Positions 29,527 through 31,946 of a DNA stretch of 39,612 nucleotides are shown piece by piece (position 1 is the stretch's first letter; each line of letters begins with the position of its first letter). The notes below the pieces were generated by a model. That model searched no databases, was not told the origin of the DNA, and worked only from the letters and a program-made list of their open reading frames with translations. The translations under genes and the position numbers were made by a program. The DNA comes from a virus: positions 1 through 39,612 of the IMG/VR virus record IMGVR_UViG_3300045988_064937; one strand, 5' to 3'.

Positions 29527-30321
29527 TTAATATAGTCCCCACTCTGCAAATTTTTCAAATCCACCTATTTCTGTTATATATTTTCTTGCTATTTCTACTA
29601 TTTCTTCATAAGGTTTACCATCTATCGTTTCATCTCCAATAGCACAACATAATTCGATAGGTTTCCCTGTTTCTTGAGCTTTTAAGAAAGCATATATATT
29701 TACAGATACATCTGCTTTTGATAAATCTTTACCATGCAAACCTCCACCTGTTACTCCATCAGCCATATCACTTCCTAACTTTCTATTTGTAGCTCCTGTA
29801 TCTACATCAGTCCCACCTGTCCATTCTCCTAATGGATTAATAATTAATTCTTTTGTTATACCTTTTGCTTGATTTTTTAAATCTTCATTTTTTGCATTAC
29901 TTTGACAAATAATAAGTTTATCATCTGTTAATATGTATTTCCCATCATAAGGGTAATCACTATATATTTGCCTTGCTATTCTTGATATTTTCTTTTCGTT
30001 GTCTGTTAAAGGAACACCTTTGAATATTCCGTTATCCCCACATCTTACTTTTTCACTTTGATTTTTAGATAAGTGGATATCTTGTGGAACTACAACTAAA
30101 TCTAGTTCTATATCTCCTGCTATTCTTTTTACTATTGCATCTATTTCTTCATTAGTAAATGTTTCACTTGTTTCAGCAATTATATGACATACTCCGTGTC
30201 CTATTAATACTTCAACCGCTATTTTTGGTCTTTCATTTTTCTTATAAGCAAGGTCAACTATTGCTCCTGCTATTCTATCTGCCACTTTGTCTGGGTGACA
30301 AGGGTTTACTTTTTCTATCAT
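29527..30321 (-). CDS. Truncated MetK-like S-adenosylmethionine synthetase (264 aa)
   Basis: CHPDKVADRIAGAIVD, GDNGIF, INPLGEWTGGTDVDTGATNRKL and TGGGLHGKDLSKAD parallel the MetK motifs GHPDK, GDQG, INPTGRF..GLTGRK and GGGAFSGKDPSKVD. Confidence 0.65.
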   Translation of the reverse strand: MIEKVNPCHPDKVADRIAGAIVDLAYKKNERPKIAVEVLIGHGVCHIIAETSETFTNEEIDAIVKRIAGDIELDLVVVPQDIHLSKNQSEKVRCGDNGIFKGVPLTDNEKKISRIARQIYSDYPYDGKYILTDDKLIICQSNAKNEDLKNQAKGITKELIINPLGEWTGGTDVDTGATNRKLGSDMADGVTGGGLHGKDLSKADVSVNIYAFLKAQETGKPIELCCAIGDETIDGKPYEEIVEIARKYITEIGGFEKFAEWGLY

Positions 30322-30323
30322 AA

Positions 30324-30758
30324 TTAATTCTCCTTTATCGTTTCTTCGTATTTTTTTAGTGATAGGTTATCACTTACTATTTTAATGCTTTCTACATTTT
30401 TAAATCCTAATGCTAGGATATAAGCCAGTTCCATATCAAATACTACTGGTTCTTTTATGTTTGTTTCTAATACAAAATCATTGGAAGTATAGCAAGTTAT
30501 ATCTCCATCTAGTTTATATGTAGGTTCTTCATATTCTACGTTTGGATGGTATAACCTGCTTTCTCCTATTCTTACTTCTGTTCCTATTGGTATAACATTA
30601 CTTCCTACATACCCAAAATTTATAATTTTCTGCCTTTTGTCGGCTTCTTTTAAAGTATTTAGTATATTTATACCACCAACACCTGTTTTTACGATTTTAT
30701 GCCCTTTAAATCGCTTTTTGGCTAGTTTATATTCTTCATCAGTTGCTACTACTATCAT
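30324..30758 (-). CDS. Mini PNP_UDP-fold protein resembling MTA/SAH nucleosidase (144 aa)
   Basis: ..KTGVGGINILN.., ..FDMELAYILAL.., ..KIVSDN.. resemble Pfs/MtnN motifs; much shorter than the canonical enzyme. Confidence 0.45.
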   Translation of the reverse strand: MIVVATDEEYKLAKKRFKGHKIVKTGVGGINILNTLKEADKRQKIINFGYVGSNVIPIGTEVRIGESRLYHPNVEYEEPTYKLDGDITCYTSNDFVLETNIKEPVVFDMELAYILALGFKNVESIKIVSDNLSLKKYEETIKEN

Positions 30759-31946
30759 TTATTAATTCTGCTTTCTTACCTGTAAATGTTTCCCAACGAT
30801 TTATTATGACGTCAACATACTTTGGATCTAATTCCATACCATAAGCAATTCTTCCATTTTGTTCACAAGCCATTATTGTAGTTCCACTTCCCATAAATAA
30901 ATCTAATACTACATCTCCTGGCTTTGTATTATTTTTTATTAGGTAATCAAACAAACCGATTGGTTTCATTGTAGGATGTTCGCCATTTCTTTGTGGTTTA
31001 TTAAAATCAATAACGGTTGTTTGTTTTCTATCACTAGCCCACAAATGACTTGCACCATCTTTCCAACCATAAAGACAAGGTTCGTGCTTCCATTGATAAT
31101 CTTGTCTACCCATTACCATAGTATTTTTATTCCATATAATACATTGCCTTACTTTCCAATTATTATCATAACAAGCACCTCTAAAATTATAACCTTCACT
31201 ATCTGCGTGCCATATATAAAATACTGCTCCTGGCTTCATAACTGCATCTGCAGTAGCAAACGCATCTCTTAAGAATTGTCTAAAACTATCATTATCCATA
31301 CTATCATTTTGTATTTTTAATGCATCTTTTGTTTTGCCTTCGTAAGCAACATTGTATGGTGGGTCAGTTATTAATAAATCAACTTTTGTTTCTCCCATAA
31401 GTTTTTCAACATCTTCTAACTTTGTCGAATCACCACACATTAAATAATGTGTTCCTAATTTATATATTTGCCCATATTTAGATTTTGCTTCTTCAGGAAC
31501 AACTATTTCATAATCATCCTCTTCAGCTTCTTCGTTTTCATTAAAACCTAATATATCATCTAACTCATCAACATTAAATCCTGTTAATTCTAAATCAAAA
31601 TCAAGTTCTTTTAAATTTTCTAATTCAGTTTTTAATATATCAATATCAAAATCACTATTCATTGTCAATTTATTATGTGCTATTATATATGATTTTCTTT
31701 CTTCATCTGTTAAATGGTCTAATCTTATTATTGGAACTTCTTTTATTCCTAATTGCATACAAGCCTTATATCTTCCATTTCCTTCAATTATGCTATTGTC
31801 CTTCCAAACTCCAATTGGGTCTATCATATTAAACTCTTGAATGCTTTTTTTAATCTGCTCAATCTGTTCTTGCGGATGTAATTTTGCATTTTTTCATATT
31901 CTTTTAATGTGTTTATGTCCACATATTCAATTTTTAAATTGTCCAT
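30739..31946 (-). CDS. ParB-like nuclease domain fused to an N6/N4 DNA methyltransferase; the 5' end is out of frame at an A6 run (31889-31894; needs -1 or one extra A), otherwise initiation at ATG 31827
   Basis: MDNLKIEYVDINTLKEYEK / NAKLHPQEQIEQIKKSIQEF..GNGRYKA (ParB-N); LLITDPPYNV and FMGSGTT (MTase motifs IV and I). Confidence 0.7.

What the first reader, a model, noticed from the sequence alone, without database searches (positions are those of the whole stretch)
29527..31946. Self-contained methylation cassette: ParB-MTase, mini SAH/MTA-nucleosidase-like gene and mini MetK-like SAM synthetase, next to the packaging genes
Three consecutive, overlapping or abutting genes encode three related functions. 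The first is a DPPY/FxGxG DNA methyltransferase fused to a ParB-like nuclease domain. The second is a 144-aa PNP_UDP-fold protein with Pfs/MtnN-like motifs. The third is a 264-aa protein keeping the MetK signature motifs (HPDK, GDxG, GGGxxxGKDxSK) but far shorter than canonical MetK. Together they could make the methyl donor, use it on DNA and remove the inhibitory product SAH. That would make phage self-methylation independent of host SAM pools, for example as a counter to restriction or SAM-dependent defences. A second NPPY methyltransferase is at 37733..38248. The functional link between the three genes is inference.
Basis: partly seen in the sequence, partly recalled or inferred. Interest (0 to 1): 0.7.

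Follow-up and report, generated by a model that had tools for sequence, protein, structure and literature searches.

The report
Phage DNA-methylation module with mini enzymes
A gut phage carries, next to its packaging genes, a DNA methyltransferase followed by strongly shortened versions of the enzyme that makes the methyl donor SAM and of the enzyme that destroys the inhibitory by-product SAH. The same gene set recurs in many related phages, so it is a real module, but it is a compact variant of viral genes that are already known.

Summary
The three genes are real and the homology calls hold. The 264-aa protein is a cut-down MetK (hhalign 96.5%) that keeps 11 catalytic or ligand residues. The 144-aa protein has no Pfam, PHROG or NCBIfam match. 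Its fold and profile place it in the PNP_UDP/MTAN superfamily, and it keeps MTAN's Glu12, Met173/Glu174 and Asp197, with Lys at Arg193.

Synteny supports the functional link:
- 70 of 80 viral mini-MetK loci carry a ParB-MTase homologue, 64 within about 100 nt.
- 15 of 23 viral mini-PNP loci have the MTase directly upstream, and 10 have mini-MetK downstream.
- Distant mini-PNP relatives sit beside a full-length MetK or a Dam-like gene.

Caveats:
- In this contig the MTase is not one ORF. A -1 frameshift in an A6 run (31889..31894) cuts off the first 40 codons of the ParB domain.
- An HNH homing-endonuclease cassette replaced the gene's 5' end.
- Enzyme activity is untested, and the MetK structure model was poor.
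- Viral metK, mtnN and dcm genes and truncated prophage MetK are already published.

Verdict: a new variant of a known kind, of moderate interest.

Noticed in passing, and probably more remarkable: at least 8 late-gene frame breaks all lie at an in-frame CGG followed by a +1 frame that starts with Gly.

The parts
29527..30321 (-). mini-MetK: a 264-aa shortened S-adenosylmethionine synthetase homologue (phrog_1569)
   Evidence: Pfam S-AdoMet_synt_N 48.9 bits. phrog_1569 E 3e-72. PDB MetK matches in two stretches. hhalign against E. coli MetK gives 96.5% probability. The conserved residues were mapped.
30324..30758 (-). mini-PNP: a 144-aa reduced PNP_UDP-fold protein that resembles MTA/SAH nucleosidase and belongs to an unannotated family
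   Evidence: No Pfam, PHROG, NCBIfam or PDB sequence match. All top Foldseek PDB hits have the PNP_UDP fold, led by MTANs. hhalign against E. coli MtnN gives E 3.5e-5 over the whole length. The family comprises 268 clusters at 50% identity.
30739..31827 (-). Main ORF (362 aa) of the ParB-MTase. It holds the C-terminal half of the ParB domain plus a beta-class N6A/N4C DNA methyltransferase (DPPY, FxGxG).
   Evidence: N6_N4_Mtase 108 bits. phrog_498 E 6e-156. PADLOC Type II MTase E 1e-118.
31889..31946 (-). 5' segment of the ParB-MTase (first 19 codons, ATG at 31946) in another frame. The A6 run at 31889..31894 is the -1 frameshift site.
   Evidence: The repaired 402-aa protein aligns end to end with intact relatives and gains ParB_N.
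31934..32491 (-). HNH homing endonuclease (NUMOD4 + HNH_3). Its end overlaps the MTase start.
   Evidence: NUMOD4 69.6 bits, HNH_3 44.1 bits. phrog_59.
32592..32651 (-). Remnant (19 codons plus stop) of the start of an older ParB-MTase allele, left upstream of the HNH cassette
   Evidence: It is identical to the first 55 nt of the intact L034 gene. Similarity to L034 resumes only at 31713.
29165..29542 (-). Small terminase subunit, overlapping the end of mini-MetK
   Evidence: phrog_309
27907..29178 (-). Large terminase, encoded in four frames joined at in-frame CGG codons (C at 29112, 28406 and 28228)
   Evidence: The fused 422-aa protein is collinear with the intact TerL of L007 and matches Terminase_6N.
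37733..38248 (-). Second, small NPPY adenine methyltransferase (171 aa)
   Evidence: EcoRI_methylase 35.9 bits and Eco57I. PADLOC MTase_II.

Best explanation
This is a phage DNA-methylation operon placed just upstream of the packaging genes.

Proposed mechanism, all steps inferred:
- The ParB-domain beta-class methyltransferase methylates phage DNA (N6-adenine or N4-cytosine) around the time of replication and packaging, most likely to escape host restriction.
- The mini-MetK is a stripped-down but catalytically competent SAM synthetase. It raises or secures the supply of methyl donor from host ATP and methionine.
- The mini-PNP is a minimal MTA/SAH-nucleosidase-type hydrolase. It cleaves S-adenosylhomocysteine, the product that inhibits the methyltransferase, into adenine and S-ribosylhomocysteine.

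Shown here:
- homology and fold class;
- conservation of catalytic residues;
- tight, recurrent gene linkage.

Inferred:
- that both mini proteins are active;
- their substrates;
- the target of the methylation;
- the benefit to the phage.

In this particular contig the MTase needs a -1 shift at an A6 run, or starts internally without the first 40 residues of its ParB domain. The module may therefore be partly impaired here.
For: MetK:
- hhalign gives 96.5% probability against E. coli MetK.
- These residues are invariant from mini to full-length forms: H9/D11/K12, E37, D96, D174, R180/K181, K198, K202 and D204. They correspond to E. coli H14/D16/K17, E42, D118, D238, R244/K245, K265, K269 and D271.
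- The family is very large.

PNP:
- The top 50 Foldseek PDB hits listed are all PNP_UDP enzymes, led by MTANs.
- Profile matches to MTANs and uridine phosphorylase have E 0.004-0.05.
- hhalign against E. coli MtnN gives E 3.5e-5 and aligns E9=E12, M109/E110=M173/E174, K126=R193 and D130=D197.
- These positions are invariant or >=90% conserved across 73 members that are 33-55% identical to the window protein.

Linkage:
- 70 of 80 viral mini-MetK loci have the MTase homologue, 64 within about 100 nt. Six of the 10 without it end within about 800 nt of the MetK gene.
- Of 23 viral mini-PNP loci, 15 have the MTase directly upstream and 10 have mini-MetK downstream. Five have MTase plus mini-PNP without MetK.
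- Relatives at 41% identity sit next to a canonical 419-aa MetK. Relatives at 32% identity sit next to a DAM-like-phage1/GNAT protein.
- Named phages (Gardnerella vB_Gva_AB1, Terrisporobacter TPDSL_ph1, Streptococcus Javan105) show TerS-MetK-MTase order.
- The genes overlap or abut, with no internal terminator.
Against: - No activity data exist for either mini family.
- NCBIfam metK score is 49.8 against a cut-off of 309, and the Pfam central and C-terminal MetK domains are not detected.
- The equivalent of Lys165 is ambiguous.
- The AlphaFold model of mini-MetK is poor (pLDDT 59.6, TM 0.27 to MetK structures). The mini-PNP model is only moderate (pLDDT 66.8).
- Mini-PNP lacks the MTAN segments that form the 5'-alkylthio pocket and much of the dimer interface, and Ser76 is Tyr. 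Its substrate could therefore differ.
- In bacterial genomes most homologues (75 of 80 loci) are chromosomal genes, mainly of Paludibacteraceae/Bacteroidales, with no MetK or ParB-MTase neighbour.
- The MTase is frameshifted in this contig.
Confidence: 0.55

Rival explanations
1. The mini-MetK and mini-PNP are auxiliary metabolic genes. They reprogramme host methionine, sulfur, polyamine or AI-2 metabolism rather than serving the neighbouring methyltransferase.
For: Viral metK, mtnN, luxS and dcm are reported as organosulfur auxiliary genes, abundant in human-associated viruses (bioRxiv 10.1101/2021.01.05.425418). A truncated prophage MetK in S. agalactiae was linked genetically to aggregation and biofilm phenotypes (PMC8223999).
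Against: Near-obligate abutting or overlapping linkage to a DNA MTase (64 of 70 within about 100 nt). Mini-PNP tracks the MTase even where MetK is absent. The position is among early/packaging genes, not in a moron-like site.
Confidence: 0.15
2. The mini-MetK is not a synthetase. It would be a SAM- or MetK-binding protein, for example a dominant-negative partner that poisons host MetK dimers, or a regulatory subunit of the MTase. That would lower or sense SAM, as phage T3 SAM lyase does.
For: About 120 residues of the canonical enzyme are missing. It falls far below the NCBIfam metK cut-off. The MetK active site lies at a dimer interface (established knowledge). The T3 SAM lyase is reported to inhibit SAM synthesis as well as cleave SAM (title and abstract of bioRxiv 10.1101/2023.02.27.530186).
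Against: Every tested ATP, triphosphate and methionine ligand residue is invariant across the family, which a mere binder would not need. SAM depletion would starve the co-encoded SAM-dependent MTases.
Confidence: 0.1
3. The mini-PNP hydrolyses a different adenine nucleoside or nucleotide, and its link to methylation is indirect. Candidates are 5'-deoxyadenosine, MTA, ATP/NAD-type molecules, an immune signal, or a modified nucleoside.
For: The 5'-substituent pocket segments of MTAN are deleted and Ser76 is not conserved. Distant relatives sit beside dUTPase or ThyX nucleotide-metabolism genes. Bacteroidales homologues are chromosomal, next to miaA and glycogen synthase.
Against: Three independent contexts all involve SAM chemistry: ParB-MTase, canonical MetK and a Dam-like enzyme. 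In addition, an RlmI-like SAM methyltransferase lies directly downstream in 11 bacterial loci. The MTAN catalytic set is retained.
Confidence: 0.15

Closest known systems
Bacterial S-adenosylmethionine synthetase MetK (EC 2.5.1.6; Pfam PF00438/PF02772/PF02773; TIGR01034)
   Same: The N-terminal domain HMM matches. The HPDK, GDxG, NPxG...D.G.TGRK and GGGxxSGKDxSKxD motifs and their catalytic residues are conserved.
   Different: 264 aa against about 384. The central and C-terminal domain HMMs do not match. The score is far below the equivalog cut-off. The PDAK Lys165 equivalent is uncertain.
Truncated prophage 'MetK' of Streptococcus phages (12/111phiA, Javan prophages) and viral metK/dcm/mtnN auxiliary genes (Kieft et al. 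2021)
   Same: A phage-borne shortened MetK, often next to DNA methyltransferase genes. Javan105-type proteins are 70% identical to the window protein.
   Different: The published work frames these as host-metabolism or biofilm genes. A conserved MTase-MetK pair next to the terminase, and the mini-PNP insert, are not described in the papers found.
5'-methylthioadenosine/S-adenosylhomocysteine nucleosidase MtnN/Pfs (PNP_UDP_1 superfamily), including Chlamydia CT263
   Same: Same fold class. Glu12, Met173/Glu174 and Asp197 are retained, with Lys in place of Arg193. The best structural and profile matches are MTANs.
   Different: 144 aa against about 230. It lacks the beta-hairpin after strand 1, most of residues about 100-150 and the C-terminal helix. 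Ser76 is replaced by Tyr. It is not recognised by Pfam PF01048.
Phage ParB-domain orphan DNA methyltransferases (phrog_498; beta-class N6A/N4C)
   Same: Domain order ParB_N then N6_N4_Mtase, with DPPY before FxGxG. The location is near the terminase genes.
   Different: Here the gene is interrupted by a -1 frameshift, and its 5' end is a mosaic created by an HNH homing-endonuclease cassette.

Membership tests
MetK / SAM synthetase | N-terminal domain HMM (PF00438) above the gathering score | tested here: met
   48.9 bits against 33.1, residues 3-72
MetK / SAM synthetase | Central (PF02772) and C-terminal (PF02773) domain HMMs; three-domain protein of about 380-400 aa | tested here: not met
   No hit to either domain. 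The protein is 264 aa. By contrast L025 MetK hits all three.
MetK / SAM synthetase | NCBIfam equivalog TIGR01034 cut-off | tested here: not met
   49.8 bits against 309.4
MetK / SAM synthetase | Catalytic and ligand residues (E. coli H14, D16, K17, E42, D118, K165, D238, R244, K245, K265, K269, D271) | tested here: inconclusive
   Eleven of the twelve are invariant in the alignment with full-length MetKs. K165 is ambiguous: K128 in the invariant 'YPYDGKY' may be its equivalent, but MAFFT and hhalign place it elsewhere.
MetK / SAM synthetase | SAM synthesis activity; dimeric active site | not testable with these tools
   The monomer AF2 model is poor (pLDDT 59.6). No multimer prediction or assay is available.
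MTA/SAH nucleosidase (PNP_UDP_1) | Pfam PF01048 match | tested here: not met
   No hit for the window protein. Only 2 of 73 family members give weak hits (best E 0.001).
MTA/SAH nucleosidase (PNP_UDP_1) | PNP_UDP alpha/beta fold | tested here: met
   The top 50 Foldseek PDB hits listed are all PNP_UDP enzymes (prob 0.8-1.0, TMq 0.43-0.64), but E is only about 2e-3 and model pLDDT is 66.8. hhalign is full-length with E 3.5e-5.
MTA/SAH nucleosidase (PNP_UDP_1) | Catalytic Glu12, Glu174 and Asp197, plus Arg193 and Met173 | tested here: met
   E9, E110, D130, K126 (Lys in place of Arg) and M109 align. All are invariant or >=90% conserved in 73 diverse members.
MTA/SAH nucleosidase (PNP_UDP_1) | Ser76 and the segments forming the 5'-alkylthio pocket and dimer interface (about residues 100-150, Phe207) | tested here: not met
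   Ser76 aligns with Tyr50. The segments are largely deleted in the 144-aa protein.
MTA/SAH nucleosidase (PNP_UDP_1) | Hydrolysis of SAH or MTA | not testable with these tools
   Needs an enzyme assay or mtnN complementation.
ParB-domain beta-class DNA methyltransferase (phrog_498) | N6_N4_Mtase domain with DPPY (motif IV) before FxGxG (motif I) | tested here: met
   108 bits. ITDPPYNV and DLFMGSGTT are in the sequence.
ParB-domain beta-class DNA methyltransferase (phrog_498) | N-terminal ParB_N domain in the same polypeptide | tested here: inconclusive
   Detected only after repairing the frameshift (27.8 against 26.3 bits). The conserved GHGR motif is GNGR here.
ParB-domain beta-class DNA methyltransferase (phrog_498) | Single intact ORF | tested here: not met
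   A -1 frameshift at the A6 run 31889..31894 in the window and in L032. The gene is intact in L033, L034, L007 and others.

The most novel reading that the evidence does not exclude
Both mini proteins are fully active. They would then be among the smallest natural SAM synthetase (264 aa) and adenosyl-nucleosidase (144 aa) known. Together with the ParB-methyltransferase they would form a three-enzyme unit that keeps phage DNA methylation running when host SAM is scarce or SAH accumulates. That would be a counter-defence strategy opposite to the SAM destruction used by phage T3.
Probability: 0.35. Interest if true: 0.6.

Novelty: new variant of a known kind. Interest (0 to 1): 0.45.

Why it matters
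If both mini proteins are active, they define minimal catalytic cores for two textbook enzymes, which is useful for enzymology and SAM biotechnology. They would also show that many Firmicutes gut phages secure their own methyl-donor cycle for DNA methylation. The 144-aa family is unannotated in Pfam, PHROGs and NCBIfam. It also occurs as a chromosomal gene in Bacteroidales, so naming it would improve annotation. The concept itself, viral metK/mtnN/dcm genes, is already in the literature, which limits the surprise.

Tried and rejected
- Megablast of the region against annotated phages found no match.
- I considered a group I intron carrying the HNH gene inside the MTase. I rejected it. Rfam finds only a tRNA in the window. 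The downstream MTase allele has its own start. The upstream 19-codon remnant equals the L034 allele. This fits an inserted homing-endonuclease cassette with a foreign 5' gene segment.
- I considered sequencing errors as the cause of the TerL breaks. I rejected this. The same breaks occur in assemblies from other samples. They are the only internal indels in the TerL alignment, and each is a single C placed 5' of a Gly GGN codon.
- I considered AGG as a second shift codon. I rejected it. Ten of the 11 AGG hits lie in the junk 0-frame tails just downstream of CGG sites, and the other is a ribosome-binding site.
- The AlphaFold model of mini-MetK was too poor to say which structural elements are deleted.
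- The BFVD fold search for mini-PNP gave only weak matches to giant-virus nucleoside phosphorylases.
- PADLOC has no match for either mini protein.
- The diverse alignment A2 could not be used for locus search, so A1 was used instead.
- Literature searches found no biochemical study of the mini-MetK family or of the MTase-MetK module.
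Full report
**What the window is.** The window is a whole 39.6-kb contig of about 28% G+C. Nearly all genes lie on the minus strand. It is a tailed phage with SPP1-type portal, capsid, tape measure, tail and lysin genes. No record in the annotated phage collection is close at the DNA level.

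**Observation.**
- 30739..31827, 362 aa: N6_N4_Mtase 108 bits and phrog_498.
- 30324..30758, 144 aa.
- 29527..30321, 264 aa.

They overlap or abut, with a 20-nt overlap and then a 2-nt gap. The last one overlaps the small terminase gene by 16 nt. There is no terminator-like site on the coding strand. The quoted motifs are all in the sequence.

The upper end of the finding (31827..31946) is not in frame with the rest. The true N-terminus MDNLKIEYVDINTLKEYEK starts at 31946. It reaches the main ORF only through a -1 shift in the A6 run at 31889..31894. Adding one A gives a 402-aa protein that aligns end to end with intact relatives. Only then does it pass the ParB_N threshold (27.8 against 26.3 bits). 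A second assembly has the same break (L032). L033 and L034, which carry 100% and 99% identical mini-PNP genes, have intact MTase genes.

**Mini-MetK.**
- Pfam sees only the N-terminal MetK domain (48.9 bits). NCBIfam metK scores 49.8 against a cut-off of 309.
- PDB MetK sequences match in two stretches, residues 3-54 and 157-216.
- A family profile aligns to E. coli MetK with 96.5% probability.
- I aligned four mini proteins, a 345-aa intermediate form, a 419-aa phage MetK and E. coli MetK. The residues corresponding to E. coli His14, Asp16, Lys17, Glu42, Asp118, Asp238, Arg244, Lys245, Lys265, Lys269 and Asp271 are invariant.
- The Lys165 equivalent is uncertain. Lys128 in the invariant YPYDGKY is a candidate.
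- The family is phrog_1569, listed as 'unknown function'.
- The AlphaFold model was poor (pLDDT 59.6). Foldseek returned only MetK structures but with TM about 0.27. The model adds nothing beyond the sequence evidence.

**Mini-PNP.**
- There is no match in Pfam, PHROGs, NCBIfam, PADLOC or PDB sequences.
- It belongs to a family of 268 clusters at 50% identity, typically 145-180 aa long.
- A moderate AlphaFold model (pLDDT 66.8) matches only PNP_UDP-fold enzymes in the top 50 PDB hits. Chlamydia CT263 MTAN and Brucella MTAN lead the list (E about 2e-3, TMq 0.43-0.64).
- A profile of 73 diverse members finds uridine phosphorylase and MTANs in the PDB at E 0.004-0.05. It aligns over its whole length with E. 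coli MtnN (hhalign E 3.5e-5, probability 72%).
- In that alignment Glu9, Met109/Glu110, Lys126 and Asp130 correspond to MtnN Glu12, Met173/Glu174, Arg193 and Asp197. These positions are invariant or at least 90% conserved in the family.
- Ser76 is replaced by Tyr. The segments that build the 5'-alkylthio pocket and dimer interface are missing.
- It is therefore best described as a minimal MTAN-like hydrolase of uncertain substrate range.

**Linkage.**
- Of the 80 best viral loci encoding a mini-MetK (70-77% identical), 70 carry a homologue of the ParB-MTase on the same strand. In 64 of them the two genes are within about 100 nt or overlap. Six of the ten exceptions end within about 800 nt of the MetK gene.
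- The same pair occurs next to the small terminase gene in Gardnerella phage vB_Gva_AB1 and Terrisporobacter phage TPDSL_ph1. It also occurs in Streptococcus phage Javan105.
- Mini-PNP is rarer. It is present in 2 of those 80 loci and absent from the closest MetK relatives L001-L004.
- Among 23 viral loci found with mini-PNP, the MTase lies directly upstream in 15 and mini-MetK directly downstream in 10. Five have MTase plus mini-PNP without MetK.
- Two loci with a 41%-identical relative place it between a dUTPase and a canonical three-domain MetK. Two loci with a 32%-identical relative place it beside a DAM-like-phage1/GNAT protein.
- In bacterial genomes the homologues are mostly chromosomal genes of Paludibacteraceae/Bacteroidales. 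Their neighbours include miaA, a glycogen synthase and, in 11 loci, an RlmI-like SAM methyltransferase directly downstream.
- The repeated association with SAM-making or SAM-using enzymes is the main argument for an SAH-clearing role.

**Mechanism and rivals.** The best-supported reading is a methylation operon: the MTase uses SAM, mini-MetK makes it and mini-PNP removes SAH. I put this at 0.55. The rivals are:
- host-metabolism auxiliary genes (the published framing);
- a non-catalytic MetK-like binder;
- a different nucleoside substrate for mini-PNP.

None is excluded without biochemistry.

**Prior knowledge.**
- Kieft et al. list metK, mtnN, luxS and dcm as frequent viral genes in human-associated samples. 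They note metK with dcm on single genomes.
- A prophage MetK with a 135-residue truncation has been studied genetically in S. agalactiae.
- I found no description of the conserved MTase/mini-MetK pair or of the 144-aa family.
- I therefore file this as a new variant of a known kind.

**Side observation 1: mosaic 5' end of the MTase gene.** The MTase 5' end is a mosaic. The first 55 nt of an L034-type allele survive at 32651..32595. They are followed by an HNH (NUMOD4/HNH_3) gene and a foreign, L007-like 5' MTase segment. Similarity to L034 resumes at 31713.

**Side observation 2: CGG and +1 frames.**
- The large terminase is spread over four frames. Each break is an in-frame CGG after which the +1 frame continues with Gly. 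Intact relatives have plain GGN Gly codons at those positions: KV-G-ARRCGKT, ATE-G-ETEF and ADY-G-ALGQ.
- The extra C is polymorphic among lineages, and L001/L002 carry a fourth site.
- The same signature joins the tape-measure C-terminus (15893), a three-frame 830-aa tail protein (14551, 13410), a minor head protein (20118) and a phrog_3754 protein (7436). PHROG alignments span the last two junctions.
- Two further in-frame CGGs (6012, 1792) are compatible with a +1 shift into an immediate stop.
- Of 12 in-frame CGGs with at least 60 open codons upstream, 9 show the pattern. Most other codons tested show it at 0-11%, about 5% for the frequent ones. AGG is higher (11 of 34), but ten of those hits lie in the junk tails downstream of CGG sites and one is a ribosome-binding site.
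- An unrelated GenBank phage of 27% G+C (PQ006095.1) shows it at 6 of 7 sites. One lies in the terminase Walker B motif, IIDEAS|GVKD.
- The nearest published analogue I found is +1 frameshifting at rare UGG_A or CGG_A codons in glass-sponge mitochondria (PMC5009743).
- None of these sites lies in the methylation cassette.

Noticed in passing
window, minus strand; the C of the CGG lies at 29112, 28406, 28228 (TerL), 20118, 15893, 14551, 13410 and 7436; possibly also 6012 and 1792. Also L001-L004, L032, L034 and L195 (PQ006095.1).: At least 8 frame breaks in late or structural genes all sit at an in-frame CGG codon, after which the protein continues in the +1 frame starting with Gly (C+GGN). Relatives with intact genes have plain GGN at these positions. 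The extra C is polymorphic between lineages. No demonstrably ordinary in-frame CGG codon was found. An unrelated low-GC GenBank phage shows the same pattern at 6 of 7 in-frame CGGs, while most other codons tested show it at 0-11%. This looks like systematic +1 recoding at a rare or unassigned CGG. It resembles glass-sponge mitochondria, and I did not find it described for phages.
   Followed up: partly
window 31713..32651 (-): The 5' end of the MTase gene is a mosaic. A 19-codon remnant of an L034-type ParB-MTase start (32592..32651) is followed by a NUMOD4/HNH_3 homing endonuclease gene (31934..32491). After that comes a foreign L007-like 5' MTase segment with its own ATG. Similarity to L034 resumes at 31713. 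The insertion point is the conserved ParB 'YxNNxR/K-H' motif.
   Followed up: partly
window 31889..31894 (-): A -1 frameshift in an A6 run separates the first 19 codons of the ParB-MTase from the rest. It is present in the window and in L032, and absent in L033, L034 and L007. It is unclear whether this is a real mutation, slippage or an assembly error.
   Followed up: partly
window 31740..31751 region (ParB domain of the MTase): The conserved ParB-domain motif GHGR of relatives reads GNGR in this allele, a His to Asn change.
   Followed up: no
window 34461..34534 (-): A phage-encoded tRNA-Trp(CCA) lies between the RusA-like gene and the glycosyltransferase gene. Any relation to the CGG recoding is unknown.
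   Followed up: no
L128-L194 (bacterial genome contigs): Homologues of the 144-aa protein (38-53% identical) are chromosomal genes in Paludibacteraceae/Bacteroidales and a few Clostridia MAGs. They lie next to miaA, a glycogen synthase, SecDF and, in 11 loci, an RlmI-like SAM methyltransferase. This may be the housekeeping MTAN of these bacteria.
   Followed up: partly
L027 and L028, about 5941..7870: A 32%-identical mini-PNP relative overlaps a 458-aa protein with DAM-like-phage1 and GNAT-phage-like domains, downstream of a ThyX-like gene. This may be a DNA hypermodification context.
   Followed up: no
P0001 (357 aa; top hit): A 357-aa protein scores highest against mini-MetK but no identity or coverage was reported for it. 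It may be a fusion or a mis-called longer ORF. I did not inspect it.
   Followed up: no
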